From contig JAXLSP010000006.1 in assembly GCA_046330515.1 (NCBI GenBank), positions 55,068-119,067 on the forward strand: a stretch of 64,000 nucleotides of DNA, in the 5' to 3' direction. Shown one piece after another: positions 1 to 34,474 of the stretch (positions are counted from its first letter, which is position 1; each line of letters begins with the position of its first letter). The position numbers were made by a program, and so were the translations under genes. Under the pieces are notes generated by a model. That model was not told the DNA's origin. It did not search any database and saw only the letters and a program-made list of their open reading frames with translations. Source of the stretch: Nocardioidaceae bacterium. GTDB lineage: Bacteria > Actinomycetota > Actinomycetes > Propionibacteriales > Nocardioidaceae.

Positions 1-46
1 GCAGCGCTTCGCCGCCTGGGCGGGGGAGCGGGGTCTGGTCACGCTC

Positions 47-1132
47 GTGCGGGAGACCACCGACCTCGACCGGGTCATCGAGGGGCTCGGAGCACCGGGC
101 ACCCGCACCCAGGCCTCCGGCGGCGACGAGGCCGCGGAGGCCGTCGCCCGCGTCCGGGCGCTCGTGAGCGCCGACCGCCAGGACCGGGTCCCCGGGCCCG
201 GGGCCCCCCTCGTCCTCTATGTGGGTGGCTCGGGCCGCTCGGGCTCCACGCTGCTCGAGAGCATGCTCGCCCTGCTGCCCGGCGTGGTCGTCCTCGGGGA
301 GGTCGCCCATCTCTGGGAGCGCGGGATCCGCAACGACGAGCTGTGCGCCTGCGAGCGGCCGTTCAGCGAGTGCGCGTTCTGGACGCAGGTCGGCGAGCGT
401 GCCTTCGGTGGCTGGGACCAGGTCGACGTCGAGCGCGTCCTGTGGCTCAAGGACGCCGTCGACCGGCAGCGCCGGATGCCGCAGACGGCACGCCGACACC
501 CCGGCAGCGACCTTCGGGCCGAGCTCCTGGAGTACGCCGCCCACTACCGCCGCCTCTTCGCGGCCGCGCGCGACGTGGCCGGCGCCGACGTCGTGGTCGA
601 CTCGAGCAAGGTGGCCCCGACCGCGCTGGCCTACAGCCACGACCGGCACATCGACCTGCGGGTCATGCACATCATCCGGGACAGCCGTGGCGTCGCCTAC
701 AGCTGGTCCAAGGCCGTCGCGCGGCCCGAGACCGGCTCCGAGGAGCTCATGCCCCAGCTGTCGGCGCGGGAGTCGACGGCGCTCTGGCTGAGCCACAACT
801 ACAGCATCGGCCTGCTGCGCTACCGGCACGTGCCCGTCGCGCGGCTGCGCTACGAGGACCTCATGGAGGACCCGGCGTCCGTCGTACGCACCGCCTGGCG
901 GGCCCTGGACCTGCCCGGCGACGGGGAGCTCCCGATGATCGACCGGCACACCCTGGAGCTCGAGCCCACCCACTCCGTCGCCGGCAACCCGAGCAGGTTC
1001 CGGCACGGCGTCACGACCCTGCGGCCCGACACGGCCTGGAGGGACAACATGTCCGCGCATGACCGTCGGCTGGTGACGGCCCTGACCCTGCCGGCGCTCG
1101 CCTCCGCCGGCTACCTCCGGAGGAAGCGATGA
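47..1132 (+). CDS. PAPS-type sulfotransferase family protein (frame is open to window start, so the 5' end may be truncated)
   Basis: P-loop-like 5'-PSB motif YVGGSGRSGSTLLESML and 3'-PB-like IIRDSRGVAYSW. Stop overlaps the next start (ATGA at 1129). Confidence 0.8.
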   Translation: MRETTDLDRVIEGLGAPGTRTQASGGDEAAEAVARVRALVSADRQDRVPGPGAPLVLYVGGSGRSGSTLLESMLALLPGVVVLGEVAHLWERGIRNDELCACERPFSECAFWTQVGERAFGGWDQVDVERVLWLKDAVDRQRRMPQTARRHPGSDLRAELLEYAAHYRRLFAAARDVAGADVVVDSSKVAPTALAYSHDRHIDLRVMHIIRDSRGVAYSWSKAVARPETGSEELMPQLSARESTALWLSHNYSIGLLRYRHVPVARLRYEDLMEDPASVVRTAWRALDLPGDGELPMIDRHTLELEPTHSVAGNPSRFRHGVTTLRPDTAWRDNMSAHDRRLVTALTLPALASAGYLRRKR

Positions 1133-2040
1133 CGAGCTCGGTGACCGTGGTCATCGCCACCCGGGACCGCCCCGAGATGATGCGGGAGGCCCTGGCGTCG
1201 GTCCTCGAGCAGGACTATGCCGGTCCCGTCGAGGTGATCCTCGTCTTCGACCAGGCCGAGCCCGAGCTCGACCTGGCCACCGAGGCCGACCCGCTCCGCC
1301 GGGTGGTGGTCACGACCAACGGCCGCTCGCCCGGGCTGGCCGGGGCTCGCAACACCGGCATCACGGCGTCGCAGTCCGACTACGTCGCCTTCCTCGACGA
1401 CGACGACCTGTGGCTCCCGGGCAAGCTCGGCGCCCAGGTCGCGCTGCTGGATGCCGACCCCGAGGCCGTGCTGGCGACCACCGGGATCGTCGTGGACTAC
1501 GACGGCGAGCGGCACCCCCGGGTGCTGCCGCAGCCGACCGTCGGCCTCGCCGACCTGCTGCGCGACCGGCACACCGAGCTGCACCCCTCGACGTTCGTCG
1601 CGCGCCGCTCCGCGCTGCTCGGCCCGGTGGGTCTGGTCGACCAGGAGGTGCCGGGCGGCTTCGGGGAGGACTACGACCTGTTGCTGCGGGCGGCCAAGGT
1701 GCACCCGATCCTCAACGTCACCGAGCCGCTCACGCGGGTCCGGTGGGGCGCCCAGTCGTTCTTCTTCCGGCGCTGGCCGATGATGGCCGAGGGCCTGACC
1801 TGGATGCTCGCCCGGCATCCCGAGTTCGCCTCGTCGCCGCGTGGCTCGGCGCGCATCCGTGGCCAGATCGCCTTCGCGCACGCGGCCATGGGCCACCGAC
1901 GGGAGGCCCTGCGCTGGGCGGCCACCGCCGTCCGCCGCAGCCCGGTCGAGCCGCGGGTGCCCCTGGCGGTCGCCGTGGCCCTCGGGCTGTCGCCCGACCT
2001 GGTGATGACGAGGCTCCACAAGCACGGGAGGGGCATATGA
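1129..2040 (+). CDS. Family 2 glycosyltransferase
   Basis: N-terminal VTVVIATRDRPEMMREALASVLEQDY and a DDDD (DxD) motif typical of GT2. 4-nt overlaps with both neighbours. Confidence 0.85.
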   Translation: MTSSVTVVIATRDRPEMMREALASVLEQDYAGPVEVILVFDQAEPELDLATEADPLRRVVVTTNGRSPGLAGARNTGITASQSDYVAFLDDDDLWLPGKLGAQVALLDADPEAVLATTGIVVDYDGERHPRVLPQPTVGLADLLRDRHTELHPSTFVARRSALLGPVGLVDQEVPGGFGEDYDLLLRAAKVHPILNVTEPLTRVRWGAQSFFFRRWPMMAEGLTWMLARHPEFASSPRGSARIRGQIAFAHAAMGHRREALRWAATAVRRSPVEPRVPLAVAVALGLSPDLVMTRLHKHGRGI

Positions 2041-2573
2041 CCGACGAGCAGGCACCGGCCAACCCCGCCGCGGGCCTGGCGCTGGGGGAGCTCGTCCGCG
2101 CCGACCTGCGCGCCAACCGCGGCTACCCCAAGAGCGTCGTGGTGCTCCTCGGCTTCCGCGTGGCCCAGGCCGCCCGCGCCCGTGGGGGTCCGGTCGGCCG
2201 GGTCGCCTACCTCCTCGCCGGCACTCTCTACAAGCTGCTGGCCGAGTGGGTGCTCGGCGTCGAGCTCCCGCCGAGCACGCCCGTGGGGCCGGGACTCCGG
2301 CTGCGCCACGGGGTCGGGCTCGTGGTCAACCCGCACGCCCGGATCGGGGCCAACGTCATGCTGCGGCACGGTGTCACGATCGGCAACCGGCTCACCGAGA
2401 CCGACTGCCCGGTGATCGAGGACGACGTCGAGGTCGGCGCCGGGGCGATCCTGATCGGTGCCATCACCATCGGCCGTGGCGCCCTCGTGGGTGCGGGGGC
2501 CGTGGTGTCCCAGGACGTGCCGGCCGGAGCGGTGGTGCTCGGACCGCGCCCCACGATCAGAGAGCGCGACTGA
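2037..2573 (+). CDS. Hexapeptide-repeat O-acetyltransferase (WcaB/CysE-like)
   Basis: Inner ATG at 2037 of ORF 1410..2573. C-terminal left-handed beta-helix repeats: IGANVMLRHGVTIGN...VEVGAGAILIGAITIGRGALVGAGAVV. Confidence 0.8.
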   Translation: MTDEQAPANPAAGLALGELVRADLRANRGYPKSVVVLLGFRVAQAARARGGPVGRVAYLLAGTLYKLLAEWVLGVELPPSTPVGPGLRLRHGVGLVVNPHARIGANVMLRHGVTIGNRLTETDCPVIEDDVEVGAGAILIGAITIGRGALVGAGAVVSQDVPAGAVVLGPRPTIRERD

Positions 2574-3948
2574 GCCCGGCGTGGGGCGTCGGCTCCTCGC
2601 TGCGCAGGGCCAGCCCGGCGGCGATCATCAGGAGCGGCAGCCCATAGGGCAGCAGGCCGTAGTAGATGAACTCGACCAGCCCGACGAGCAGCATGCAGCT
2701 CACGGCCAGCCCGATCGCGTCGCGGCGCCGGAGCGAGCCGATGAAGGCCACCAGGAACCAGCCGAAGAAGCCGACGACCGCGGCCGGACCGTGGGAGTAG
2801 AGCACCAGCCAGAGCTGCCCCTGGGTGCCCACCGGAGGGTTCCCGGCCGACTCCGCCGGGCGTGGCGCGCCCATGCCGAACAGCGGTGAGTCGGCGGTCG
2901 ACTTGAGCACCTCGCCATAGAGCGTGGTCCGGCTCTCGTTGGTCGCGCTGTTCTCGAGCCGGTTGTCCAGGCGGTCGCCGACCGGCAGGACCAGCACCGC
3001 CACCACGGCCAGGACGCCGATGAGGGTGACCCCGAGGATGGCGCGGGCGTGGCGCAGGAGGGCGAGGCGGAGCGAGATGTAGGCCAGCGAGACGGCGAGC
3101 CCGAGGAACATGCCGCGGTTGAGGGTGAGGACGGCGGGGACGAACCCGATCGGGACCGCCAGCGCGAGCACCAGGAACCGCCGCTCCCGGCGCACCAGGA
3201 CCAGGTAGGCGATGACGAGGGGGAACAGCAGCGAGAAGACGTTGCCCCAGTTGTTGGTGTAGAGGAACGGCGCGCTGGGCCGGGGCGCGATCTGGAAGTA
3301 GGAGTCGGGGTTGTACTGGGCGAACCGCCGGATCACCATCTGGTTGACCAGCTCGTTGTTGGTCAGCGCCCCCGGCAGGACATAGGACAGCGGGGTGCGG
3401 ATCACGGTCTTGGGGAAGAACAGGCCCAGGAAGCCGCCCACGATCGTGGTCGCCCAGAAGACCACCGCGAGCCCCGCCACGAAGCGCGCCGAGAGCCGGT
3501 CCCTGCCGTTGTGCACATAGAGGAAGAGCACGGTGCAGGACAGGTAGATCGCCAGCCGGTAGCCGAAGCCCACGATGCGCAGCGCCGAGTCGAGCTCGAT
3601 CACCGAGACCGCCGACCAGGCCAGGAAGAACAGCCAGAGCCCGAAGCCCCGAGGGGCGCGCAGTGCCGAGCGCCGCCGCAGGTAGAGCAGCATGACCACG
3701 GCCATCGGGAACAGCATCATGTCGACGCAGCCGAGCGCCCACCACAGGGGGAACAGGCCGAACATCCCGACCATCGGCCAGCGTGGCAGCGGCGCCGCGG
3801 GCAGCGCCTGCTCGACGGCCGTGTCGACCTGCAGTGCCGGAGCGTGCGCCGGCGCTGGGCGGTCCACCTGGGAGGTCACGCGCACCAGTGTGACAGTTGT
3901 GGCCGGTCCCCAAAGCCGGAGCCGGTATCCTGGCCGCTGCCTCGCCAC
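2557..3948 (-). CDS. O-antigen ligase / Wzy-like polysaccharide polymerase (polytopic membrane protein); start uncertain (alternative Met near 3774)
   Basis: About 10 hydrophobic segments and a large loop, sitting in a Wzx/Wzz context. Called from topology and context only. Confidence 0.6.
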   Translation of the reverse strand: MARQRPGYRLRLWGPATTVTLVRVTSQVDRPAPAHAPALQVDTAVEQALPAAPLPRWPMVGMFGLFPLWWALGCVDMMLFPMAVVMLLYLRRRSALRAPRGFGLWLFFLAWSAVSVIELDSALRIVGFGYRLAIYLSCTVLFLYVHNGRDRLSARFVAGLAVVFWATTIVGGFLGLFFPKTVIRTPLSYVLPGALTNNELVNQMVIRRFAQYNPDSYFQIAPRPSAPFLYTNNWGNVFSLLFPLVIAYLVLVRRERRFLVLALAVPIGFVPAVLTLNRGMFLGLAVSLAYISLRLALLRHARAILGVTLIGVLAVVAVLVLPVGDRLDNRLENSATNESRTTLYGEVLKSTADSPLFGMGAPRPAESAGNPPVGTQGQLWLVLYSHGPAAVVGFFGWFLVAFIGSLRRRDAIGLAVSCMLLVGLVEFIYYGLLPYGLPLLMIAAGLALRSEEPTPHAGLSRAL

Positions 3949-3982
3949 CCGTCGGGGCAGCGTGCGCCATGGGGGGTAGCCG

Positions 3983-5818
3983 GTGTCCGACCAGATCGCC
4001 GAGAGCCAGTCTCTGGGTCTCGGCCGTTACGTCACCGTGCTCAAGCGGCGCCGCTACGTCGTGCTCCTGGGTGTCCTCCTCGGCCTCGCGGCGGGGGTGC
4101 TCTACCTCCAGGCGAAGCAGACGCACAGCACGGCCTACACCCTGGTCAACATCAACGTCATCTCCAGCGACCCGTTCACCTTCGTGAAGTCGCCGTCGGA
4201 GCTGCTCGACTCGCAGAACGAGATCCAGTCCGCGCGCTCCTCCGACGTCCTCAAGGCGGCGGCCACGACGCTCGGCACCGACCAGCCGATCCTCGACATG
4301 CGGGCCAACCTCGACGTCAGCCTGCTCCAGAACGGCACCGTCGTCCGCGTGACCTACCAGGCCGACACACCCCGCGCCGCACGTGAGGGCGCGGACGCGA
4401 TCGCGGAGTCCTACCTCGTCTACCGCGGTGCCCAGGCCGCCAAGCGTGCCGACACCATCGTGGGTCAGCTCGAGGCTCAGAAGACCGATGCGATCGCCGC
4501 GCTGACCGAGGCCAACAAGAAGGTCAGCAGCACGACCCCCGGGTCGAGCGCCCGGATCGACGCCGAGTCCGACCAGCAGGCGGCACTGGCTGAGATCAAC
4601 TCGATCTCGACGTCTCTCAACAGCCTCTACAGCCTCGACACCAACGGCGGAAACGTCTATGCGTCCGCCGCTGACAACCCGGTCACCACCAGCCCGCGCC
4701 GCGTGCTGACCCTCGCCTCGGGGCTGGGCGCGGGCCTCCTCCTCGGCCTCTCGCTCGCCTTCCTGGTCAACGTCATCGACCGCCGGGTCCGCGACGACTA
4801 CGACGTCGCCGGCGCCCAGGCCGGCCGGGTGATCCTGACGCTCCACGGTCGCCACGCGCTGCTGCCGGCCCAGGGCGACGACCGCGACTCCGTCGCCGCG
4901 GCGCGCGAGCGCCTGCTGGCCGACTTCGACCCCAACGGCGGCGTGCTGGCGATCCTCGACCTGAGCCGCGGGCACGGCCCCTCCGACGCGCCGGTCAACC
5001 TGGCCCTCGCCATCGCCGAGTCCCACGCCGGCTGCGACCTCATGCTCCCGGAGTGGCCGGTCGAGCACCTCGAGCAGCTGCTGGCGGCGCTGGGCGTCGA
5101 CGAGGTCCGCAGCGACCGCCCCGCCTTCATCGACGAGCTGGACATGCGGGTCATCACGCGGCCCGACATCGACCACTCGCTCAGCGGCGGCTGGATGAAC
5201 GTGCTGCGCGACAGCATCGCCGAGAACGACCCGACCCGCTGCCTGGTGATCGCCGTTCCGCCCAAGGCGTCGCGCGCGGTGCGGCTGGCGGCCGCCCGGC
5301 TCGCGGACGCGACGCTGCTGGTCGCCGAGCTGTCGGCCACCCGCATCGGCGACCTCGCCCAGCAGGCGACCGACCTGCAGGCCGTGCACTCCGACGTCAG
5401 CGGCACCATCCTGGTCGGCCACCGCAGGTCGACGGAGTATGTCCTCGCGCCCGAGCCGTTCGAGCACGAGGAGCACCACGAGCACGAGGAGCACCAGGAG
5501 CGCGAGGAGCACCAGGAGCGCGAGGTGCGCGGTCAGCACCAGGCGACCGAGCCCGTCGACCACGAGCCCGGCGACGACGAGCTCGAGCCGGACCTCCAGC
5601 AGCCCACCCACGTGGACACCGACGACGCTGCCGACGTCGACGCACGTCCTGTCGACGACCACGACGCCGCCGAGCCCGTCGAGCCGCACGGGGGCGAGGG
5701 CGGGCCGGCGGTCGAGGACACCGAGGTCGGGCAGTCGGCCGGGCGTGAGATGGCGCGTGTCTATGAGGCGGCCCGGAGGCTGGCGGAGCGCTCCTCCAAG
5801 CAGCGCGCCCGGAGCTAG
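3983..5818 (+). CDS. Wzz-like chain-length determinant fused to a degenerate BY-kinase-like domain and a His/Glu/Asp-rich tail
   Basis: GTG start. The N-terminus LGRYVTVLKRRRYVVLLGVLLGLAAGVLYL is Wzz-like and a second TM lies near aa 240. The C-domain aligns by eye to the BY-kinase fold, but Walker A reads GHGPSD. Tail is HEEHHEHEEHQEREEHQERE. Confidence 0.65.
   Translation: MSDQIAESQSLGLGRYVTVLKRRRYVVLLGVLLGLAAGVLYLQAKQTHSTAYTLVNINVISSDPFTFVKSPSELLDSQNEIQSARSSDVLKAAATTLGTDQPILDMRANLDVSLLQNGTVVRVTYQADTPRAAREGADAIAESYLVYRGAQAAKRADTIVGQLEAQKTDAIAALTEANKKVSSTTPGSSARIDAESDQQAALAEINSISTSLNSLYSLDTNGGNVYASAADNPVTTSPRRVLTLASGLGAGLLLGLSLAFLVNVIDRRVRDDYDVAGAQAGRVILTLHGRHALLPAQGDDRDSVAAARERLLADFDPNGGVLAILDLSRGHGPSDAPVNLALAIAESHAGCDLMLPEWPVEHLEQLLAALGVDEVRSDRPAFIDELDMRVITRPDIDHSLSGGWMNVLRDSIAENDPTRCLVIAVPPKASRAVRLAAARLADATLLVAELSATRIGDLAQQATDLQAVHSDVSGTILVGHRRSTEYVLAPEPFEHEEHHEHEEHQEREEHQEREVRGQHQATEPVDHEPGDDELEPDLQQPTHVDTDDAADVDARPVDDHDAAEPVEPHGGEGGPAVEDTEVGQSAGREMARVYEAARRLAERSSKQRARS
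5486..5521 (+). repeat. Perfect 18-bp tandem duplication (gaggagcaccaggagcgc x2) inside the Wzz-like gene
   Basis: Read directly: 5486-5503 equals 5504-5521. Encodes EEHQER EEHQER. Confidence 0.9.
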
Positions 5819-5822
5819 GGGC

Positions 5823-7334
5823 ATGGACCCCGAACCCAGCGGCTCGCGAGAGCTGCGCGCCGCCGCTCGCGGCGGGGCGCTGACCCTGGTCGGTTCCGCG
5901 CTCAGCGCGGCCCTGGGCTTCACCTTCGGCATCGTGCTCGCGCGCCTGCTCGGCGCCCACGACTCCGGCGTCGTCGTCCAGGCGATCGCGGCCTTCACCA
6001 TCGCGCTGAGCATCGGACGGATCGGTGCCGACACCTGCGCGGTCTGGATCCTGCCGCCGATGGTCGGCAGCGAGCCGCGACGGGTGCGGTCGACCACGGC
6101 CCTCCTGCTGGCGATGGCCGTCGCCGGGACCGGGGTGCTCGCCCTCGGGTGGTGGGTCGTGCAACGGCTGGCGGGGACCCCCGAGTCGAGCGGGCGCGCG
6201 GCCGTGGTCTCCGCGATGACGGCGACCGCCCCGTTCCTGCCCGCGGCCGCGGTCATGGTGGTCGCCCTGGCGGCGACCCGGGCGTTCGGCGGGGTGCTGC
6301 CCTTCAACCTGATCACCAACATGCTGACCCCCGGGCTCCGCGTCGTCCTCGTCGTGGTGGTCGTGCTGGCCGGTGGTGGCGTCGTCACCGTCAGCCTCAC
6401 CTGGGGCCTCGTCTGGGTGGCGGGAGCCGTCGCCGCGCTCGCGGTGCTGGTCCGCCAGATGCGCGCGGCCACGCCGCCCGGCTGGGGCGACCGGCCTCCC
6501 TACCGCGAGGTGCTGCGGTTCTCCCTCCCGCGGGCGGTGTCGTCGGCGCTCGAGCAGTCGGTGATCTGGTTCGACGTCCTGCTGGTCGGCCTCATCGCCG
6601 GCAACGGGCCGGCGGGTGTCTATGGTGCGGCGAGCCGGTTCGTCGCCGCCGGGATCATCGTCTCCACGGCCGTCCGCATCGTCGTCGCCCCGCGGTTCAG
6701 CGCGCTGCTCGCCCAGGGACGGCTGCCCGAGCTGCGCCAGCTCTACTCCGTCACCGCGCGGTGGATCCTCGTCTTCGGAGCCCCCATCTATCTCGGGCTG
6801 GCGATCTATGCGCCCACCGTGCTGTCCTGGCTGGGCCCCGGCTTCTCCAGCGGTGTCCCGGCGATGGTCATCCTGTGCCTGGGCTCGGTCGTGGTGCTCG
6901 CGGCGGGCAACGTGCAGTCGCTGCTGCTGATGAGCGGACGCAGCTCCTGGGCCGCGGTGAACAAGTCGATCGTGCTGGCCTTCAACGTGGTGGGGAACCT
7001 GATCCTCATCCCGCGCATCGGCATCACGGGCGCGGCGATCGTCTGGGCGGCGAGCATGCTGGTCGACACGGTCCTGGCCGCCTGGCAGACGCATCGCGCG
7101 ACCCAGGTGGCCGTCGAGGTGCGCGAGGTGCTGCGCACGGGCGCCCTCGTCGCGGTCTCCGTCATGGTCCCCGCCGGAGCGGTCGCCTGGCTGCTCGGCC
7201 AGGGCACCGTGTCCCTGCTGGTGGCGGCGGTCCTGAGCGTGACGGGGCTGCTCACGATGGCCTACCTGGACCGGGACAGGCTGCAGCTCTCGGAGCTCCG
7301 CGGCATCCGCGGCCGGTCGCGTCAGGTCGCGTAG
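5823..7334 (+). CDS. Wzx-type polysaccharide flippase (MOP superfamily)
   Basis: Inner ATG at 5823 of ORF 5439..7334. Polytopic, with N-terminus LTLVGSALSAALGFTFGIVLARLLG typical of polysaccharide biosynthesis (Wzx) proteins. Confidence 0.75.
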   Translation: MDPEPSGSRELRAAARGGALTLVGSALSAALGFTFGIVLARLLGAHDSGVVVQAIAAFTIALSIGRIGADTCAVWILPPMVGSEPRRVRSTTALLLAMAVAGTGVLALGWWVVQRLAGTPESSGRAAVVSAMTATAPFLPAAAVMVVALAATRAFGGVLPFNLITNMLTPGLRVVLVVVVVLAGGGVVTVSLTWGLVWVAGAVAALAVLVRQMRAATPPGWGDRPPYREVLRFSLPRAVSSALEQSVIWFDVLLVGLIAGNGPAGVYGAASRFVAAGIIVSTAVRIVVAPRFSALLAQGRLPELRQLYSVTARWILVFGAPIYLGLAIYAPTVLSWLGPGFSSGVPAMVILCLGSVVVLAAGNVQSLLLMSGRSSWAAVNKSIVLAFNVVGNLILIPRIGITGAAIVWAASMLVDTVLAAWQTHRATQVAVEVREVLRTGALVAVSVMVPAGAVAWLLGQGTVSLLVAAVLSVTGLLTMAYLDRDRLQLSELRGIRGRSRQVA

Positions 7335-7343
7335 AGTCTCGCC

Positions 7344-8237
7344 GTGGCAGCTTCCTTGAAGGACCGTTCCCCGCGCTGGCTGAAGTCGGGCGCCGACCAG
7401 CTGACGCGTCGCTACGCGATGGCCACGGTCGCCGACCGGCCCGCGCCCGACTTCCTCATCATCGGGACCAAGCGCGGCGGGACCACCTCGCTGTTCAACT
7501 ACCTGCTGCAGCACCCGGGCATCCTCGGGCTCTACCCGCAGAACCGCGGCAAGAAGAGCACCGACTACTTCTTCAAGGAGCTCCCGCGCGGCGACGCCTG
7601 GTATCGCTCGCACTTCCACAGCCGCACCTACCGCGCCACGCTGCGCAAGCGCCTGGGCTACACCCCCGTCGGGGGCGAGGCCTCGCCCTACTACATGTGG
7701 GACCCGCGGATCGCGCCCCTCGTGGCGCACGCCGCCCCCCAGGTCAAGGCGATCGCCCTCGTGCGCGACCCCGTCGAGCGGGCCTACTCGCACTACCAGG
7801 AGCGCAAGCAGAACGGCGTCGAGCCGCTCACCTTCACCGAGGCGCTGGCCGCCGAGGAGGAGCGCACCGCCGGCGAGGTCGACGCGATGATGGCCGACTC
7901 CCGCTACTACAGCTCGGCCCACGACTTCTACACCTACCGGGCACGCGGCCTCTATCTCCCGCAGCTGCAGCAGTGGGCCGACGCCCTGGGACGTGACCAG
8001 CTCCTGGTGCTGCGCAGCGAGGACATGTACGCCGACGTCAACGGCGTCTTCGCCGAGACCTGCCGCTTCCTGGGACTGCCCGAGCACCAGCTGGCCCGGC
8101 GGGGGCCCTTCAACGCCCGCCACCGGCAGTCGGACATGCCCGACGCCGACCGGGCGGAGCTGACGGCCTTCTATGCGCCGCACAACGCGGCCCTGGAGGA
8201 GTGGCTCGGGCGTCCGCTCGACTGGTCGAAGCCCTGA
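7344..8237 (+). CDS. PAPS-type sulfotransferase
   Basis: FLIIGTKRGGTTSLFNYL (5'-PSB) and LVRDPVERAYSHY (3'-PB). Alternative start ATG at 7419. Confidence 0.8.
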   Translation: MAASLKDRSPRWLKSGADQLTRRYAMATVADRPAPDFLIIGTKRGGTTSLFNYLLQHPGILGLYPQNRGKKSTDYFFKELPRGDAWYRSHFHSRTYRATLRKRLGYTPVGGEASPYYMWDPRIAPLVAHAAPQVKAIALVRDPVERAYSHYQERKQNGVEPLTFTEALAAEEERTAGEVDAMMADSRYYSSAHDFYTYRARGLYLPQLQQWADALGRDQLLVLRSEDMYADVNGVFAETCRFLGLPEHQLARRGPFNARHRQSDMPDADRAELTAFYAPHNAALEEWLGRPLDWSKP

Positions 8238-8249
8238 CCGGTCAGCCCG

Positions 8250-9500
8250 TCACGGACCGAGGAGCCGGCGGCCCTCGTCGACGACCCGCGACACCTCGGC
8301 GGGGGAGATCCAGGCGCGCTCCCAGCCCGACCGGGCAGCGAGCGTGAGCGCCCGCTCGGCGACCGTGAGGGCATAGGCGCCGGCGACCGCACCGTCGGCG
8401 CGCGCGCCGACACCGGCGGCGCGGAGGTGGTGGCGCGCGTCGGCGACGCAGTCGGCCAGGGCGACCCCCGCGATCCCGCCCGCGCGCTCGCGGCGCACGC
8501 TGAGCGCCCAGTGCAGCGCGTCCAGCCCGGCGAGCGCGTCGGGCTCACAGGTCTCCCAGTCCCAGCACCACAGGCCGCCCGCCTCGTCCCGCGCGCAGTT
8601 CCACGGGGTCAGGTCGCCGTGCCAACGGGCCACCACCGGGAGCTCGAGTTCCACCGCGGCCACGCTCCGTGCCAGGGACGCGACAGTGTCGACCAGGTCC
8701 GTGGGCCCCGCGCCGTCGAGGCCGCGGAGCCGGGCCAGGACGCCACCCAGCTGCTGGGTGCCCGCGGGAGTGTCACGTCGCACGACCGGGGTGAGCGCCA
8801 TCAGCTCCGTCGAGGTCACCGTGTCGTCCCGCCCGCGGAGGGCCCGGGCACCCTCGGGGAGCGGCTCGGTCACCACCCACGGGTGGCCGGCGACCGTGCC
8901 GGCGGCGAGGGCGCGCGGCACGCGCATGCCCGAGCCGCCCCCCTCCAGCTCGGTCAGCACCGACGTCTCGGTCGCGACGTAGGCGTCGGTGTGCGCGTTC
9001 CACCCGAGCTTCGCGTAGCCACGGTGCCTGCCCTCGCCGTCGAGCAGCTGCAGCGTGGGCTTGCCGTTGGGGCCGGGACGGACCCCGATGGCGGCGACGA
9101 GGGTCTCGTCGTCGAGGGCGCCTGCGATCACCGTCAGGGGGAGCTCCGGGTGCGCTCCGCGTCGGACCTGCAGGTCGACGCGGGCCGCTCCGGGCGGCAG
9201 TCCCGCCCGAGCGGCGACACCCAGTGCGCGTCGTACGGCGCGCTCCCTGCTCGGCCGCAGCCGGCGGTAGCCGTCGAGGGCCGCGGCGGTCACGTGGGGG
9301 TCGCCCGCCGGCACCAGCAGCCGCAGCCGCGCGAGCGAGGGCACGGCCCAGTAGCGCTCCCGGGTCTCCCAGCCCTCGTCGGGCTCGCCGGTCCGACCGG
9401 GGCGCCCCGGCACCAGCCGCGAGCTCCCCGCCGCCTCGGTGGCCGCCCACAGCTGGCGGCGCAGGATGTCGAGCCCGGGCGAACCGCTGGAGTCTGGCAC
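8250..9500 (-). CDS. Phosphotransferase-family (APH/choline-kinase-like) protein
   Basis: Catalytic-loop-like WHGDLTPWNCA followed by CWDWETC, as in aminoglycoside phosphotransferase-fold kinases. Confidence 0.65.
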   Translation of the reverse strand: MPDSSGSPGLDILRRQLWAATEAAGSSRLVPGRPGRTGEPDEGWETRERYWAVPSLARLRLLVPAGDPHVTAAALDGYRRLRPSRERAVRRALGVAARAGLPPGAARVDLQVRRGAHPELPLTVIAGALDDETLVAAIGVRPGPNGKPTLQLLDGEGRHRGYAKLGWNAHTDAYVATETSVLTELEGGGSGMRVPRALAAGTVAGHPWVVTEPLPEGARALRGRDDTVTSTELMALTPVVRRDTPAGTQQLGGVLARLRGLDGAGPTDLVDTVASLARSVAAVELELPVVARWHGDLTPWNCARDEAGGLWCWDWETCEPDALAGLDALHWALSVRRERAGGIAGVALADCVADARHHLRAAGVGARADGAVAGAYALTVAERALTLAARSGWERAWISPAEVSRVVDEGRRLLGP

Positions 9501-9703
9501 GCGAGCACCCTACCCAGCACCCGCCGAACCGGTCGTCGCGCGGAGCGCCTACCACAGGTGGTCAAGCACCGACACCCAAATGTCTGGAATGACTCGGACG
9601 ACTCTTGGTGGACACAGGTCCGCGGGTTACCCTGAGGCCGTCTGATGGCGTGCGGCTCGGGTCATGCCTTTGCGTCCAATGCTCAGTGGGGGAGCACGAC
9701 AAC

Positions 9704-12700
9704 ATGATTCGACGTGGGGTGACGTCGGCGCTTGCCGCCGGCGCGATGATTCTGACCGCCCTCGTGGCGACGAGCCCGAGCGCGACCGCCGCGATCAACC
9801 CGAGCGTCATCGGGACGAGCGCCGCGACCGCTGCCGGCTCCTGCTGGGAGATCAAGCAGCTGCGGCCGTCGGCGACCGACGGCGCCTACTGGCTCCTGAC
9901 GCCCAAGATGGTCGAGCCGCAGCAGTTCTACTGCGACATGACCACCGACGGTGGCGGCTGGGTGCTGGTCGGCAAGGGGCGCGAGGGCTGGACCAACGAG
10001 TACCAAGGCAAGGGCAGCGCCAGCGACCTGCTGACGCCGACGCTCAGCCCGATGTCCTCGGTGACCACCCAGCTCGGGGGCGACACGATCAACGCGCTGC
10101 TCAACGGCGGCCGCGTCGACGCGCTGTCCGAGGGCATCCGCCTGCGCCGGGCCACCAACACCACGGGCACCAGCTGGCAGGAGGTGCGCTTCAAGCTGTC
10201 CAGCCGCGACCGCTGGGCGTGGACCTTCGGCGCCGAGCACACGCTGGGCACCTGGTCCTTCGACAACTCCACCGGCTCCGGCGGCACCACGCCGTCCTTC
10301 GGCTCCAACAACAGCACGCGGCGCGTCGTGAACACGACGGCGCAGGCGCAGACCTACAAGCTCGGCTTCGCCTTCGGCTCCCAGGTCAGCGGCTCCAACT
10401 CCGACACGACCTACCTCTGGTCGGCCACCAACGGTGGTGGCGGCGCGCTGCCCTACACGATGGTCTACCTGCGGCCCCGCGTCCTCTCCACCGATGCCGG
10501 CTTCACGGCCATCCCCGACGGGGGCCTCGGCCAGAAGGTCAACATCAGCGTCGCCAAGAACAACGCGATCAGCCCGCCCTGGGGCGTGGCCGGCATGGCC
10601 GGTGCCGTCAGCATCGAGGGCAGCGTCGAGGTGCAGGCCTTCACGCAGTCCGGCAACAACATGTACGTCGGCGGCAACTTCGGTTATGTCCAGCGTGACG
10701 AGGCCGGCACCGACCGGGTCGACCAGCCGTTCCTGGCCGCGTTCGACGTCACGACCGGCGAGCTCGTGCAGAGCTTCCGGCCGGTGCTCAACGAGCAGGT
10801 CCGCGCCCTGACCACGCTGCCCAACGGCAACGTCGTCGCCGGTGGTGACTTCACGCAGGCCAACGGCGTCGCCGTCGGTGCGATGGTCGTGCTCGACCCG
10901 ACCACGGGGGCGACCGTGCCGGGCTGGAACACCAAGGTCCTCCAGAACGGCACCACCAACCCGCTGCGCGTCTGGACGCTCCAGGCCGCGCACGGCTGGA
11001 TCTATGTCGGCGGGACCTTCACCCACCTCCAGGGTGGGACCAAGCCCAACGTGCAGGTCGCCGCGAAGAACCTCGGCCGCATGGACAGCGCGACGTTCAC
11101 CCCCGACACGACGTGGCTGCCCAAGCCCAACGCGGGCGTCGAGGCTCTGGACGCGTCCGACGACGGCACCCGGCTCTACGCCGCCGGCCACTTCACCATC
11201 GTGACCGGCGTCTCCGCGGTCAGCGCTGCGGTGATCTCGACCTCCTCCGGTGCGGCGGTCACGCCGTGGGCGCCGGTCTGGAGCGCGTCGAAGACCTACC
11301 AGCAGGCCATCGACGAGGTCGGCGGTCGGCTCTGGGTCGGCGGGTCGGAGCACAACCTGTTCTCCTACGACACCCCGACGCTCAACCGCCTGTCCGGGAA
11401 CATCTTCCAGAAGAACGGTGACATCCAGGGGATCACCGACGACCGCGGTGTCGTCTACGCCGGCTGCCACTGCAACAACTTCAACTACTCCAACGCCTTC
11501 CGGTGGACGACGCCGGTGCCCGCCGGCTGGACCCAGGCCGACGCCCTCAACTGGTTCGGGGCCTGGGACGCCAACACCGGCCAGGTGATCCAGCAGTTCA
11601 CCCCGTCGTTCCGGATGCGGCTGGGATCGGGCATCTGGGCCCTGCAGGCCGACACGACGGGCACGCTGTGGGCCGGCGGCGACATCGAGGCGGTCAGGAC
11701 CGGCACCAAGGCCGCGGCCTGGGCCGGTGGGTTCGCGCGGTTCGCCCGCACGGACACCGAGCCGCCGCCGGTGCCGACCAACCTGCGGGTGAGCTCCTAT
11801 GACGACACCTCGGTGTCGCTGGCCTGGGGTGCCAACGGCGCCGGCGGCAGCACGCGCTACCTGGTGCTCCGCGACGACCGTCCGATCGCCACCACGTCGG
11901 CCACGTCGATCACGGTGCCTCGAGGCGGGTCCGACCGCTACTTCGTCCGCTCGATCGACACCGACGGCAACGCGTCGGCCACGACGTCGGTCACGGCGCT
12001 GCCGGCCAACACCAAGCCGACGGCCGCGTTCAGCTCGACCGTGGACGCGACGGGGGCGCACTTCGACGGGTCCGGCTCCAGCGACCCGGACGGCAGCGTC
12101 GTCAACTGGTCGTGGAGCTTCGGCGACGGCGGCACGGGCTCCGGTCAGAACGTTGACCACGTCTACGCCGCGCCGGGCACCTACCAGGTCACCCTGACGG
12201 TGCTGGACAACCTCGGCGCGACGGCGTCGGTCACCAACCCGGTCGTCATCAGCTCCGGGATCCAGACGCAGGTCAAGATCGCGCGCCTGTCCGGCTGGGC
12301 CTGGTACTACGCCGGGACGGCGCCGCCGGCCGGCTGGAACACCAACGGCTTCGACGACTCCGCCTGGTCGACGGGCAACGCCGTGCTCGGGTTCCCGTCC
12401 ACCGCGGTGGCGACCAACATCGACACCTTCGCCACGACGTCGCTGCGGGCCAAGACGGCCTACTTCCGCAAGACGTTCCAGGTGGCCGACGTGTCCAAGG
12501 TGACGAGGCTGGCCATCACGGCCGTCGCCAACGACGGTGCGGTGGTCTATGTCAACGGGGTCGAGGTGGCCCGGCAGAACATGCCGGCCGGCACGATCAC
12601 CTTCGACACCTTCGCCTCGACGGCGCGCAGCGCCGCCACGGCGAACGCCAACCCCATCGTGGTGGACATCCCGCTGAACCTGCTGGTCGACGGGACCAAC

Positions 12701-12843: not shown

Positions 12844-13050
12844 GACCTCCTTTACACCCGGCCGCGCCGTCTGTCCGGCGAACGACCCGAATGAACCCGG
12901 TAACTGAGGAGATCTGCCCGATCGGGCAACCGCCTAGTCCACCATGACCAGCGGGAAATGGCAAGGCCTATCGATGCCCTTGCCGGGACCTTTCTGGAAG
13001 CGTTTGGGACGCACCACTCAGCTATCTCGGGAGCTTTTCGGAGGTCGTCC

Positions 13051-14742: not shown

Positions 14743-14797
14743 GCCCCGGGCCACAACCCGGAGCGATACCCGGTCTAGACAGCAGCACGCAGCACCG

Positions 14798-14833
14798 CGA
14801 CCACGCCAGCCGGTTGTCCGGCTGGCGTGGTCG
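14798..14833 (+). terminator. Intrinsic terminator-like hairpin
   Basis: Perfect 16-bp stem CGACCACGCCAGCCGG / CCGGCTGGCGTGGTCG with loop TTGT, followed by GCTCTTCTCC. Confidence 0.6.
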
Positions 14834-14915
14834 GCTCTTCTCCGGACCCTCGGTGGCGTGTGATACTCCTCCCCAACGGGGTGGTGGGGACCCCCTTGAG
14901 CAGTGGGGACGTTTC

Positions 14916-19320: not shown

Positions 19321-19499
19321 GAGCGTGGCTCCCCCCAGGTAAACGCAGGCTTGCCTACGTGACCCGCATTACCCCACTTTGCCCGGCAAGAACAGACCCC
19401 TAGGGGCGCTGACTTCCACGCCGGGGTGACTTACGATCGATCCACTCGCCTCGGGGCGATCGTCATGTTCGTATGCGTCACGCTTGTGGGGAGCCACGC

Positions 19500-23075: not shown

Positions 23076-23240
23076 CCCGGTCCCGGCCCCGTCCGGCCCT
23101 CGGCCCGGCCCTCGGCGCGGCCGTCGCGTATCACGAACGCGCGACGACCCTCCTCTTCTGCGTCATCACCCGATGAGACGCCCGTCACTCAAGTGACGGC
23201 ATCGGCTGCCGAACGGAATGAGCAGAAGGGAGGCCCGACC

Positions 23241-23390: not shown

Positions 23391-23445
23391 CCGGGGTCAC
23401 GCTCGCCACCCGGAACCGGCTCGGCGTCGGGGCCGTCCCACCGGC

Positions 23446-31574: not shown

Positions 31575-34474
<2,900 letters not shown>

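What the first reader, a model, noticed from the sequence alone, without database searches (positions are those of the whole stretch)
47..9500. Wzx/Wzy polysaccharide locus carrying two PAPS-type sulfotransferases and an APH-like kinase: a candidate sulfated (and phosphorylated?) actinobacterial surface glycan
The Wzx flippase, Wzy-like polymerase, Wzz-like co-polymerase, GT2 and O-acetyltransferase form a classic Wzy-dependent pathway. Embedded in it are two proteins with clear PAPS-binding motifs (GRSGSTLL / RDSRGVAYS and KRGGTTSL / RDPVERAYS) and a kinase-fold phosphotransferase. A PAP phosphatase (cysQ, 21892) closes the adjacent block. PAP is the inhibitory by-product of sulfotransferases, and CysQ is known to support sulfolipid synthesis in M. 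tuberculosis.

Sulfated glycolipids are known in mycobacteria. Sulfated Wzy-type polysaccharides are, to my knowledge, essentially undescribed in actinobacteria. Only one GT is visible, so the locus probably continues upstream of the window.
Basis: partly seen in the sequence, partly recalled or inferred. Interest (0 to 1): 0.7.

Follow-up and report, generated by a model that had tools for sequence, protein, structure and literature searches.

The report
Conserved actinobacterial sulfated-glycan gene cassette
This stretch of a Nocardioidaceae genome is one copy of a gene cassette shared by many actinobacteria that very probably makes a sulfate-decorated surface or secreted polysaccharide, a kind of polymer not yet shown chemically in this phylum.

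Summary
Window 1-9500 encodes a GT2, a hexapeptide acetyltransferase, Wzy, a Wzz-type co-polymerase, Wzx, two sulfotransferases with intact PAPS-binding and catalytic residues, and a kinase-fold protein. A true CysQ lies at 21892.

Corrections and additions:
- ORF 47..1132 is the tail of a 483-aa fusion of an Alg13-like glycosyltransferase half with sulfotransferase 1.
- Alg14 and a Bac_transf priming transferase lie just upstream of the window.
- A GH26 hydrolase (18306..19289) also belongs to the locus.

The locus is not a one-off. In 49 related genome loci with full flanks:

| Gene | Loci |
|---|---|
| Sulfotransferase 2 | 46 |
| Wzy, Wzz, kinase | 43 each |
| Wzx, GT2 | 42 each |
| GH26 | 30 |
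| cysQ | 14 |

Where cysQ is present it sits with cysD and cysN.

A June 2026 paper on the Actinoplanes missouriensis wps-1 cluster describes a matching gene set, predicts a sulfated polysaccharide from knockouts, and gives no chemistry.

New here are the glycosyltransferase-sulfotransferase fusion, the breadth of conservation, and the embedded sulfate-activation genes. Sulfation and phosphorylation remain unproven.

The parts
1..1132 (+). 3' part (376 codons) of a 483-aa fusion gene: an Alg13-like glycosyltransferase half (Glyco_tran_28_C) fused to sulfotransferase 1 (Sulfotransfer_3 type). The first ~107 codons lie upstream of the window.
   Evidence: The frame is open from base 2. The full gene is in L002:852-2303, which is 99.9% identical DNA. 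Pfam PF13469 and PF00685. The family alignment has invariant HGGPGT, GEHVDDHQ, GRSGST, GE and RD...S. A profile matches CurM ST (2e-8) and TPST. The AF2 model's top fold matches are all PAPS sulfotransferases.
1129..2040 (+). GT2-family glycosyltransferase; its start overlaps the fusion gene's stop by 4 bp.
   Evidence: PF00535 E=7e-23. ATGA junction. Present in 42 of 49 related loci with full flanks. Fused to the Alg13-sulfotransferase protein in some organisms (P0012, P0022, P0027, P0028).
2037..2573 (+). Hexapeptide-repeat acyltransferase (probable O-acetyltransferase); an accessory gene.
   Evidence: PF00132 E=3e-11. 4-bp overlap with GT2. Present in only 8 of 49 related loci.
2557..3885 (-). 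Wzy_C-family polytopic membrane protein (probable repeat-unit polymerase).
   Evidence: PF04932 E=5e-9. About 10-12 hydrophobic segments. Called as 442 aa in identical contigs. Present in 43 of 49 loci.
3983..5818 (+). Polysaccharide co-polymerase (Wzz/Wzc-like). It has an N-terminal Wzz domain, two TM helices, a cytoplasmic BY-kinase-like domain with a degenerate Walker A, and a His/Glu-rich tail.
   Evidence: PF02706 at 19 bits, below the cut-off; partial hits to TIGR03017 and TIGR01005. TM helices at 26-44 and 247-265. Walker A reads GHGPSD here but GEGKST in some homologues. Present in 43 of 49 loci by iterated profile.
5823..7334 (+). Wzx-type flippase (Polysacc_synt).
   Evidence: PF01943 E=3e-10. 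503 aa as called in L001. About 12-14 hydrophobic segments. Present in 42 of 49 loci.
7344..8237 (+). Sulfotransferase 2, of the heparan-sulfate 3-OST/NDST-like type (Sulfotransfer_1).
   Evidence: PF00685 and PF13469, both about 7e-12. PDB 3rnl E=4e-24; 3-OST-3 and NST about 7e-10, with KRGGTT, the catalytic Glu (GGEASP versus MEKTP) and RDPVERAYS aligned. No TM segment. Present in 46 of 49 loci.
8250..9500 (-). Kinase-fold protein (APH / eukaryotic-like-kinase superfamily) with an N-terminal extension of about 130 aa; substrate unknown.
   Evidence: No Pfam or NCBIfam hit. Invariant A163-K164, E178, H294-G-D296-x4-N301 and D314. AF2 pLDDT 93.7. Foldseek matches fructosamine-3-kinase, Cph, homoserine kinase II and APH(2''), TM 0.43/0.56. 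Present in 43 of 49 loci. 1,315 cluster representatives at E<=1e-30.
9605..12787 (+). Secreted beta-propeller (DUF5122) / PKD / CBM-like protein; a frequent neighbour of the cassette. The real start is probably the internal Met before the signal peptide.
   Evidence: PF18911 E=5e-21. Signal-peptide-like segment. Homologues in 19 of 80 loci.
12958..14742 (+). Secreted GH16-domain protein; specific to this organism's version of the locus.
   Evidence: PF00722 E=2e-10. No homologue in the 80 related loci.
14538..17360 (+). Second secreted propeller / PKD / CBM-like paralogue. The real start is probably downstream of 14742.
   Evidence: PF18911 E=3e-21 and DUF5122. Homologues in 22 of 80 loci.
17362..18252 (+). 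Membrane-anchored GH16-domain protein.
   Evidence: PF00722 E=2e-12. TM helix at 18-36.
18306..19289 (+). Secreted GH26 glycoside hydrolase; a conserved accessory gene of the cassette and the counterpart of WpsE in wps-1.
   Evidence: No Pfam hit. A profile of 14 homologues matches CtLic26A (2vi0) at E=1e-25; H159 and E266 are invariant and E160 is conserved in at least 90% of sequences. Signal peptide. Present in 30 of 49 loci.
19473..21863 (+). Secreted propeller / Laminin_G_3 protein.
   Evidence: PF13385 E=3e-23 and DUF5122. Homologues in 21 of 80 loci and in L089.
21892..22674 (+). CysQ, a 3'-phosphoadenosine-5'-phosphate (PAP) phosphatase.
   Evidence: PDB 5djf (M. tuberculosis CysQ) E=1e-63 over residues 7-251. 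PF00459. TIGR01331 at 104.6 bits is the best NCBIfam hit but below the equivalog cut-off. 57% identical to the CysQ that sits with cysD and cysN inside the Arthrobacter cassette.

Best explanation
The region is one copy of a conserved actinobacterial Wzx/Wzy/co-polymerase cassette that makes a polysaccharide whose repeat unit is sulfated on the cytoplasmic side before export.

Proposed pathway (inferred unless stated otherwise):
1. A Bac_transf phosphoglycosyl transferase primes undecaprenyl phosphate. Its presence just upstream of the window is shown.
2. The Alg14 / Alg13-like pair adds the second sugar.
3. Sulfotransferase 1, which is covalently fused to the Alg13-like half, sulfates the nascent lipid-linked glycan using PAPS.
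4. GT2 adds a further sugar.
5. The hexapeptide acyltransferase, sulfotransferase 2 (3-OST-like) and the kinase-fold enzyme add acetyl, a second sulfate and probably phosphate.
6. Wzx flips the decorated unit. Wzy polymerises it under control of the Wzz/Wzc-like co-polymerase.
7. The secreted GH26 enzyme, and in this organism the GH16 enzymes, trim or release the polymer.
8. CysQ hydrolyses PAP, the inhibitory by-product of sulfotransfer.

What is shown: gene content, intact cofactor and catalytic motifs, cytoplasmic location of the modifying enzymes, and conserved co-occurrence. What is inferred: the order of steps, the sugars involved, the kinase's substrate and the polymer's destination.
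For: -
- PAPS-binding and catalytic residues are conserved and align to solved PAPS enzymes for both sulfotransferases.
- The sulfotransferases, the kinase, GT2 and CysQ have no TM or signal sequence. Wzx, Wzy and Wzz are polytopic or bitopic.
- 4-bp start/stop overlaps join the fusion gene, GT2 and the acetyltransferase.
- Co-occurrence in 49 loci with full flanks: ST2 46; Wzy, Wzz and kinase 43 each; Wzx and GT2 42 each; GH26 30.
- A cysQ-cysD-cysN block lies inside or next to the cassette in about 20 of the 82 related loci searched, from Nocardiopsaceae, Arthrobacter, Pilimelia, Pseudokineococcus and Mycobacteriales MAGs. It lies between Bac_transf and Alg14 in Arthrobacter.
- Triple fusions Alg13-ST-GT2 exist. 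Fusions or merged gene calls joining GT14 or GT26 to the kinase exist.
- In A. missouriensis, knockouts of the Wzx, Wzy, Wzz, HS-type sulfotransferase and kinase-like genes, and of the neighbouring CysN/C-family gene, give the same sporangium defect (PMC13390465).
Against: - No chemistry exists for this organism or any carrier of the cassette. The A. missouriensis authors say that sulfation 'awaits experimental verification'.
- The window has no cysD, cysN or cysC, so PAPS supply in this MAG is unverified.
- CysQ is 12 kb from the kinase gene and separated from it by six secreted-protein genes.
- The Wzz Pfam score is below the cut-off.
- The Wzy_C Pfam family also contains ligases and O-oligosaccharyltransferases.
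- Sequence orthology to the wps-1 proteins could not be tested, because no Actinoplanes sequence was retrievable.
- The 80 loci were chosen by similarity to the fusion protein, so their Alg14 and ST1 content is true by construction.
Confidence: 0.7

Rival explanations
1. The Wzy_C protein is a ligase or O-oligosaccharyltransferase (WaaL/PglL-like) rather than a polymerase. On this reading the cassette attaches a short sulfated oligosaccharide to secreted proteins, such as the neighbouring PKD/propeller proteins, or to a lipid or wall acceptor.
For: PF04932 covers ligases and PglL-type transferases as well as polymerases (established knowledge of the family; hit). Secreted propeller/PKD/LamG proteins neighbour the cassette in about 20 of 80 loci and in L088 and L089. 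Only two or three glycosyltransfer steps are encoded.
Against: A Wzz/Wzc-type co-polymerase is a core member of the cassette, present in 43 of 49 loci. Some homologues keep an intact BY-kinase Walker A, which is typical of polymerising Wzy systems. The secreted proteins are much less conserved than the core genes. A secreted GH26 endo-hydrolase fits a polymer substrate.
Confidence: 0.12
2. The kinase-fold protein does not phosphorylate the glycan. Instead it phosphorylates a protein, for example standing in for the degenerate BY-kinase domain of the co-polymerase, or it makes a sugar-1-phosphate precursor as NahK and AmgK do. If so, the product is sulfated but not phosphorylated.
For: The co-polymerase's Walker A is degenerate in the window and in many other lineages. 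Protein kinases such as PknB appear among the fold matches. APH-fold anomeric sugar kinases are known (established knowledge).
Against: TM-scores are higher to small-molecule kinases (0.41-0.44 on the query) than to protein kinases (0.24-0.27). No nucleotidyltransferase partner for a salvage route is present in the locus. The kinase also occurs in loci whose co-polymerase keeps an intact Walker A (L028, L036, L065, L071, L080). Fusions or merged gene calls join it to GT14 and GT26 glycosyltransferase domains.
Confidence: 0.25
3. The sulfotransferases act on something other than the Wzx/Wzy glycan, such as a small molecule, a lipid like mycobacterial sulfolipid, or a peptide, and are merely neighbours of a polysaccharide locus.
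For: ST1's nearest solved relatives are a polyketide-pathway sulfotransferase (CurM) and the tyrosylprotein sulfotransferases, not carbohydrate enzymes.
Against: ST1 is physically fused to a glycosyltransferase half, and in some genomes also to GT2. ST2 lies within 10 kb of the fusion gene, alongside Wzx and the kinase, in 46 of 49 loci. ST2's nearest functionally named relatives are heparan-sulfate sulfotransferases. No PKS, NRPS or lipid genes are in the locus.
Confidence: 0.05

Closest known systems
wps-1 cluster of Actinoplanes missouriensis (AMIS_7280-7380, WpsA-K; PMC13390465, Appl Environ Microbiol, June 2026)
   Same: It is an actinobacterial Wzx/Wzy/Wzz cluster with two sulfotransferases of different families: a Gal/GlcNAc-type (WpsB) and a heparan-sulfate-type (WpsH). 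It also has a kinase-like protein (WpsI) next to the HS-type sulfotransferase, a GT2 (WpsA) and a GH26 (WpsE). A neighbouring sulfate-activation gene is needed for the same phenotype. The Wzx-ST-kinase-Wzy-Wzz adjacency is the same as in the Micromonosporaceae members of the cassette found here (L019, L021, L022, L025, L056, L081). A GT26-type variant with clear sequence homology to the window's GT2, Wzy, Wzx, ST2 and kinase exists (L089).
   Different: wps-1 has a GT26 (WpsC), a methyltransferase and a DUF4262 protein. It has no reported Alg14/Alg13 pair, its first sulfotransferase is stand-alone rather than fused, and no acetyltransferase or priming transferase is listed. Gene order in the window differs: Wzy(-), Wzz, Wzx, ST2, kinase(-). 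Sequence-level orthology to the AMIS proteins was not tested here. The paper gives genetics only and did not survey other genomes.
xss (synechan) cluster of Synechocystis sp. PCC 6803 (PMC8205485)
   Same: It is a Wzx/Wzy/PCP gene cluster carrying two sulfotransferases from distinct subfamilies. The product was shown chemically to be a sulfated exopolysaccharide, and the model is cytoplasmic modification of the lipid-linked repeat unit.
   Different: It is cyanobacterial and plasmid-borne, with eight glycosyltransferases and a dedicated regulatory system (XssS/R/Q) and an OPX export protein. It has no kinase-like gene, no GT-sulfotransferase fusion, no GH26 and no CysQ. There is no evidence of orthology; the similarity is one of pathway logic.
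Mycobacterial sulfoglycolipid pathway (Stf0 / sulfolipid-1) with CysQ
   Same: An actinobacterial PAPS-dependent sulfotransferase acts on a sugar. CysQ, to which the window's protein matches at E=1e-63, removes PAP. Stf0 and Stf1 appear among ST1's distant fold matches.
   Different: The substrate is trehalose glycolipid, not a Wzx/Wzy polymer. There is no Wzx, Wzy or Wzz. Stf0 belongs to a different sulfotransferase subfamily, and the genes are not clustered in this way.
Bacterial Alg13/Alg14-like split glycosyltransferases of capsule and EPS loci (for example Cps14F/G-type pairs)
   Same: A small Alg14-like protein is followed by an Alg13-like Glyco_tran_28_C protein. The HGGPGT and E..DDHQ motifs are conserved and there is a weak match to the C-terminal half of MurG. 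The pair sits directly after the priming transferase.
   Different: Here the Alg13-like half carries a C-terminal sulfotransferase domain. I found no description of such a fusion in the searchable literature. The sugar transferred is unknown.

Membership tests
PAPS-dependent sulfotransferases (PF00685 / PF13469), ST2 at 7344..8237 | Pfam score above the gathering threshold | tested here: met
   PF00685 45.7 bits (cut-off 22) and PF13469 46.6 bits (cut-off 27).
PAPS-dependent sulfotransferases (PF00685 / PF13469), ST2 at 7344..8237 | 5'-phosphosulfate-binding loop, 3'-phosphate-binding motif and catalytic base aligned to a solved enzyme | tested here: met
   Alignment to 3-OST-3 (1t8t): KRGGTTSL versus KKGGTRAL; GGEASP versus MEKTP (Glu on Glu); VRDPVERAYSHY versus VRDPVTRAISDY.
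PAPS-dependent sulfotransferases, ST1 domain (window 1..1132) | Pfam score above the gathering threshold | tested here: met
   PF13469 39.3 bits (cut-off 27) and PF00685 23.3 bits (cut-off 22).
PAPS-dependent sulfotransferases, ST1 domain (window 1..1132) | PSB loop, PB motif and catalytic Glu conserved, plus a sulfotransferase fold | tested here: met
   In the alignment of 14 fusions, S187, G188, E207, R333 and D334 are invariant; R186, S189, T190 and S341 are conserved in at least 90%. The profile aligns these to CurM ST and TPST. The AF2 model has pLDDT above 90 over the domain, and the best 26 Foldseek hits are sulfotransferase-fold enzymes, nearly all PAPS-dependent sulfotransferases. A family-specific insertion of about 75 residues with an H/C/C/C cluster has no counterpart in the solved relatives.
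PAPS-dependent sulfotransferases (both) | Sulfuryl transfer from PAPS to an acceptor | not testable with these tools
   This needs an enzyme assay.
Wzx/Wzy-dependent polysaccharide pathway | Priming phosphoglycosyl transferase | tested here: met
   It lies outside the window. The C-terminal 99 aa in L002 (99.9% identical DNA) are 81% identical to the Bac_transf protein of L087.
Wzx/Wzy-dependent polysaccharide pathway | Wzx flippase (polytopic, Polysacc_synt/MOP) | tested here: met
   PF01943 40.3 bits (cut-off 28.2). About 12-14 hydrophobic segments.
Wzx/Wzy-dependent polysaccharide pathway | Wzy polymerase, as opposed to a ligase | tested here: inconclusive
   PF04932 36.6 bits (cut-off 31.7) and a polytopic topology. 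The Pfam family does not separate polymerases from ligases. Co-occurrence with a co-polymerase favours a polymerase.
Wzx/Wzy-dependent polysaccharide pathway | Polysaccharide co-polymerase (Wzz/Wzc) | tested here: inconclusive
   PF02706 scores 19 bits, below the 25.5 cut-off. The two-TM topology fits, the L087 homologue carries PF02706, and the C-terminal domain aligns with BY-kinase P-loop domains that are intact in some homologues.
wps-1-type cluster (A. missouriensis) | Two sulfotransferases of different families plus a kinase-like protein plus Wzx/Wzy/Wzz plus GT2 plus GH26 | tested here: met
   All are present in the window.
wps-1-type cluster (A. missouriensis) | GT26 (WpsC), methyltransferase (WpsF), DUF4262 (WpsD) | tested here: not met
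   None is present in window 1-24000. The window uses Alg14/Alg13 instead. A GT26-type variant exists elsewhere (L089).
wps-1-type cluster (A. missouriensis) | Sequence orthology to the AMIS_7280-7380 proteins | not tested
   No Actinoplanes sequence could be fetched.
CysQ (PAP phosphatase), 21892..22674 | Close full-length similarity to a biochemically and structurally characterised CysQ | tested here: met
   5djf (M. tuberculosis CysQ) E=1e-63, residues 7-251. TIGR01331 is the best NCBIfam hit but scores 104.6 bits against an equivalog cut-off of 228.8.
APH / eukaryotic-like kinase superfamily, 8250..9500(-) | Catalytic residues: AxK Lys, helix-C Glu, HxDxxxxN, Mg-binding Asp | tested here: met
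   K164, E178, H294, D296, N301 and D314 are invariant in 32 sequences.
APH / eukaryotic-like kinase superfamily, 8250..9500(-) | Membership of Pfam PF01636 (APH) | tested here: not met
   The window protein has no Pfam hit at E<=0.01. Only some homologues have weak PF01636 hits. The similarity is at fold level only, TM 0.43/0.56 with 9-17% identity.

The most novel reading that the evidence does not exclude
Many Actinomycetota share one conserved sulfated, and possibly phosphorylated, envelope or matrix polysaccharide. The carriers span Nocardioidaceae, Micrococcales, Micromonosporaceae, Nocardiopsaceae, Acidimicrobiia, Gaiellales and Euzebya. On this reading the polymer is made by a fixed cassette whose hallmark is a glycosyltransferase-sulfotransferase fusion that couples sugar addition to sulfation on the lipid carrier. 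A dedicated glycan kinase of a large uncharacterised family takes part, and in some lineages the cassette has its own sulfate-activation genes (cysQ, cysD, cysN). This would be a bacterial, glycosaminoglycan-like 'common antigen' in a phylum where sulfated polysaccharides have never been shown.
Probability: 0.45. Interest if true: 0.78.

Novelty: new variant of a known kind. Interest (0 to 1): 0.6.

Why it matters
Sulfated polysaccharides are textbook products of animals and algae. Among bacteria they are best established in cyanobacteria and some marine Gram-negatives. In actinobacteria there is only a genetic hint, from one species in 2026.

This analysis shows that the locus is a conserved cassette found in many culturable genera, sometimes with its own sulfate-activation genes. 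That makes the question directly testable in isolates such as Arthrobacter, Nocardiopsis, Catellatospora, Ornithinimicrobium and Nocardioides.

If the prediction is confirmed, it would:
- add a new class of envelope or matrix polymer to a phylum important for soil ecology and antibiotics;
- give a function to a kinase-fold family of more than 1,300 sequence clusters;
- provide a natural glycosyltransferase-sulfotransferase fusion of interest for making sulfated glycans in microbes.

Tried and rejected
1. ORF 1671..2369(-) has coding-like GC3 but no family hit, and it overlaps GT2 and the acetyltransferase. I rejected it as spurious.
2. A single-sequence PDB search with ST1 found nothing significant. 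The family profile was needed.
3. The exact source contig could not be fetched. P0121 is 'not on record' in the contig index, and the genome scan's best locus is only 60% identical. The upstream sequence therefore comes from 99.9%-identical metagenome contigs.
4. I tried to link the window to wps-1 by sequence through a Catellatospora kinase homologue. No Actinoplanes protein was returned by name.
5. Literature searches for Alg13-sulfotransferase fusions, and for sulfate in EPS of Nocardiopsis, Arthrobacter or Nocardioides, found nothing relevant. A general search on actinobacterial sulfated polysaccharides returned mainly algal papers.
6. I considered the kinase-like protein as a substitute APS kinase. 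This is unlikely. A. missouriensis needs both WpsI and a CysN/C-family gene, several loci have both a CysC-like hit and the kinase, and the fold is not that of P-loop APS kinases.
7. tblastn alone undercounted the Wzz, kinase and GH26 genes (8, 36 and 17 of 80). Iterated profile HMMs corrected this.
8. The window has no cysD, cysN or cysC. The CysC probe was the E. coli sequence recalled from memory, so those six hits are indicative only.

Full report
**Source and gene calling.** The window is 72% G+C, so raw ORF lists are full of false frames. I picked genes by third-position GC and confirmed them with Pfam and NCBIfam. The kinase-like protein is 100% identical to a protein from an NCBI MAG labelled Nocardioidaceae bacterium (locus tag U0R80_16535, contig 163 kb).

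| Coordinates | Gene | Evidence |
|---|---|---|
| 1129..2040 | GT2 | PF00535, 7e-23 |
| 2037..2573 | Hexapeptide acyltransferase | PF00132, 3e-11 |
| 2557..3885(-) | Wzy_C protein | PF04932, 5e-9 |
| 3983..5818 | Wzz-like protein | PF02706 below cut-off; classic two-TM topology |
| 5823..7334 | Wzx | PF01943, 3e-10 |
| 7344..8237 | Sulfotransferase 2 | PF00685 and PF13469, about 7e-12 |
| 8250..9500(-) | Kinase-like protein | No family hit; HGDLTPWN...DWE motif |
| 21892..22674 | IMPase-family protein | E=1e-63 to M. tuberculosis CysQ (5djf) |

The quoted PAPS motifs are in the sequence as written.

**Main correction.** ORF 47..1132 is an edge artefact. The frame is open from base 2. Six metagenome contigs that are 99.9% identical to the window show a 483-aa gene. 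Its N-terminal 150 residues or so are an Alg13-like Glyco_tran_28_C domain, and its C-terminal two-thirds are the sulfotransferase. Upstream lie an Alg14-like gene and the C-terminus of a Bac_transf priming transferase, which is 81% identical to that of a relative.

In the closest relative on a long contig (69% identity, L087), the locus begins right after glmU-prs-rplY-pth with Bac_transf-Alg14-fusion-GT2-hexapeptide-Wzy(-)-Wzz...ST2-kinase(-). Downstream in the window come a serpin, mfd, an IS110 transposase and eno. The glycan locus therefore fills the gap between two housekeeping blocks.

**Are the sulfotransferases functional?**
- ST2 aligns to a bacterial sulfotransferase structure (3rnl, 4e-24) and to heparan-sulfate 3-OST-3 and NST (about 7e-10). 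The PSB loop (KRGGTT), the catalytic Glu and the 3'-PB motif (RDPVERAYS) are in register.
- ST1 alone finds nothing in the PDB. A profile of 14 fusion proteins hits the CurM/OLS sulfotransferase domains (2e-8, 4e-6) and the tyrosylprotein sulfotransferases (about 1e-4). The xRSGSTLL, GE and VRDxRA..S motifs align.
- These ST1 residues are invariant or nearly so in the family.
- An AlphaFold model of the window's ST1 portion has pLDDT above 90 over the domain. Its best fold matches are all PAPS sulfotransferases: CurM ST, TPST1/2, Stf0, 3-OST and Stf1.

ST1 has a family-specific insertion of about 75 residues with a conserved His and three Cys. It has no counterpart in the solved relatives and I cannot explain it.

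**The kinase-like protein.**
- It has no Pfam or NCBIfam hit.
- In 32 homologues, K164 (AxK), E178, H294-G-D296-x4-N301 and D314 are invariant.
- The model is confident (pLDDT 93.7, pTM 0.91).
- The model resembles small-molecule kinases of the APH type: fructosamine-3-kinase, capreomycin phosphotransferase, homoserine kinase II and APH(2''). TM is about 0.43 on the query and 0.56 on the target, with 9-17% identity. It resembles these more than it does protein kinases (TM about 0.26).
- An exhaustive profile search finds 1,315 cluster representatives at E<=1e-30, nearly all about 400-430 aa.
- Two long forms join it to GT14 or GT26 glycosyltransferase domains.

The substrate is unknown. I favour the lipid-linked glycan, but this is inference.

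**Is it a one-off?** No.
- The fusion protein has thousands of homologues. They include stand-alone sulfotransferases and Alg13-ST-GT2 triple fusions.
- A genome scan returned 80 loci. They come from Ornithinimicrobium, Actinotalea, Nocardioides, Catellatospora, Pilimelia, Nocardiopsis, Marinactinospora, Allonocardiopsis, Streptomyces specialis, Arthrobacter and Pseudokineococcus. MAGs of Acidimicrobiia, Gaiellales, Euzebya, Jiangellales and Frankiaceae are also represented.
- Iterated profile HMMs were run against all ORFs of these loci. Hit E-values were mostly 1e-80 to 1e-180.

| Gene | Loci with the gene, of 49 with full 10-kb flanks |
|---|---|
| ST2 | 46 |
| Wzy | 43 |
| Wzz | 43 |
| Kinase-like | 43 |
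| Wzx | 42 |
| GT2 | 42 |
| GH26 | 30 |
| CysQ | 14 |
| Acetyltransferase | 8 |

The loci were selected through the fusion protein, so Alg14 and ST1 are present by construction. The other genes are not. This is a conserved cassette, unlike hypervariable capsule or O-antigen loci.

**GH26.** The unannotated protein at 18306..19289 is a secreted GH26 hydrolase. A profile of its homologues matches CtLic26A at 1e-25, and the two catalytic Glu are conserved.

**Link to sulfate activation.**
- In Arthrobacter sp. Hor0625 the order is Bac_transf-cysQ-cysD-cysN-Alg14-fusion-GT2...kinase-ST2-Wzx-Wzz-like-Wzy.
- A cysQ-cysD-cysN block, 55-100% identical to that one, lies within 10 kb of the fusion gene in about 20 loci from at least six lineages. 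Six loci also give a CysC-like hit, though that probe was recalled from memory.
- The window has only CysQ. It is 57% identical to the Arthrobacter one, lies 29 nt after the last secreted-protein gene, and has no cysD, cysN or cysC nearby.

PAPS supply in this MAG remains unverified.

**Mechanism.** ST1, ST2, the kinase, GT2 and CysQ lack TM or signal sequences. Wzx and Wzy are polytopic. Wzz has two TM helices and a cytoplasmic domain of about 345 aa. The downstream hydrolases and propeller proteins have signal peptides. 4-bp overlaps join the fusion gene, GT2 and the acetyltransferase.

The most economical reading runs as follows:
1. The repeat unit is assembled on undecaprenyl phosphate by Bac_transf, then Alg14/Alg13, then GT2.
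2. It is modified in the cytoplasm by the two sulfotransferases, the acetyltransferase and the kinase.
3. It is flipped by Wzx.
4. It is polymerised by Wzy and Wzz.
5. It is processed outside the cell by GH26 and GH16 enzymes.
6. CysQ removes PAP.

The fusion of ST1 to a glycosyltransferase half is the strongest single argument that the sulfate acceptor is the nascent glycan.

The Wzz C-terminal domain is BY-kinase-like. Some lineages keep an intact Walker A (GEGKST), while the window and many others have a degenerate one (GHGPSD).

**Comparison with what is known.** The closest described system is wps-1 of Actinoplanes missouriensis (PMC13390465, June 2026).
- Its genes are GT2, a Gal/GlcNAc-type sulfotransferase, GT26, DUF4262, GH26, a methyltransferase, Wzx, an HS-type sulfotransferase, a kinase-like protein, Wzy and Wzz.
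- All but wpsD were needed for normal sporangia. So was a neighbouring CysN/C-family gene.
- The authors predict a sulfated polysaccharide, state that verification is pending, and did not survey other genomes.
- Eight wps-1 gene types have counterparts in the window.
- The Wzx-ST-kinase-Wzy-Wzz order matches the Micromonosporaceae members of the cassette.
- A GT26-type variant that is homologous in sequence to the window's GT2, Wzy, Wzx, ST2 and kinase exists (L089).
- I could not obtain the AMIS sequences, so orthology is inferred from architecture and order, not tested.

The functional analogue with chemistry behind it is the synechan xss cluster of Synechocystis, which has Wzx, Wzy, a PCP and two sulfotransferases. 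Neither the 2024 review of polysaccharide sulfotransferases nor my searches mention actinobacterial polysaccharide enzymes or an Alg13-sulfotransferase fusion.

**Verdict.** Novelty is reduced by the 2026 paper but not removed. The GT-ST fusion, the wide conservation, the embedded cysQ-cysD-cysN genes, and the size and conservation of the kinase family are not in the literature I could search. No one has yet shown the sulfate. I rate this a new variant of a known kind, interest 0.6.

Noticed in passing
window 300..560 (ST1 residues about 205-283 in fusion numbering): ST1 carries a family-specific insertion of about 75 residues between the PSB loop and the rest of the fold. It has an invariant His and three Cys (H210, C222, C224, C231) plus AFGGW and VDRQRR motifs. 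It does not align to CurM ST or TPST. It could be a zinc site or an acceptor-binding lid.
   Followed up: partly
window 4900..5818: The co-polymerase's cytoplasmic domain is BY-kinase-like, but its Walker A is degenerate (GHGPSD). Some homologues keep GEGKST. The protein ends in a His/Glu-rich low-complexity tail (EHEEHHEHEEHQEREEHQ...).
   Followed up: partly
window 9605..12787, 14538..17360, 19473..21863 and 62576..63886(-): Four paralogous secreted proteins carry DUF5122 beta-propeller repeats with PKD, CBM-like or Laminin_G_3 domains. Three lie in the locus and one lies 40 kb away. Relatives flank the cassette in about 20 of 80 loci, and giant versions occur in Arthrobacter (L088). Their function is unknown.
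   Followed up: partly
window 12958..14742 and 17362..18252: Two GH16-domain proteins, one secreted and one membrane-anchored, have no homologue in any of the 80 related loci. They look like a lineage-specific addition to the locus.
   Followed up: partly
window 23218..24786: A bacterial serpin (PF00079, E=3e-90) lies directly after cysQ. The ORF as called has a long Arg/Pro-rich N-terminal extension before the serpin domain.
   Followed up: no
window 29796..31235 (-): An IS110-family transposase (DEDD_Tnp_IS110 plus Transposase_20) is inserted between mfd and eno. It is followed by a 566-aa ORF (31575..33275, -) with no family hit that overlaps the start of eno.
   Followed up: no
window 40482..44427: Sulfur-related genes unrelated to PAPS: a cystathionine-beta-synthase-like PALP+CBS protein (40482..41897) and a TauE/SafE sulfite exporter (43618..44427).
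   Followed up: no
window 55939..59372: A MoxR-like AAA+ ATPase (467 aa) is followed by a 677-aa VWA-domain protein with a 4-bp overlap, the typical MoxR-VWA pair.
   Followed up: no
window 38219..38294: A tRNA-Leu (anticodon TAA) is the only RNA gene detected in the window.
   Followed up: yes
L033 and L050: Two contigs carrying the full Alg14 / Alg13-ST / GT2 core are binned as Verrucomicrobiales and Burkholderiales MAGs. This is either mis-binning or horizontal transfer out of Actinomycetota.
   Followed up: no
P0012, P0022, P0027, P0028 (proteins of 733-818 aa): These are triple fusions, Alg13-like plus sulfotransferase plus GT2 in one polypeptide. They merge the first two genes of the window's operon.
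   Followed up: no
L087 15989..17520: In the 69%-identical relative, no Wzx gene is called between Wzz and ST2; there is only a gap and a 156-aa ORF. This is probably a frameshifted or decayed flippase, or an assembly error.
   Followed up: no
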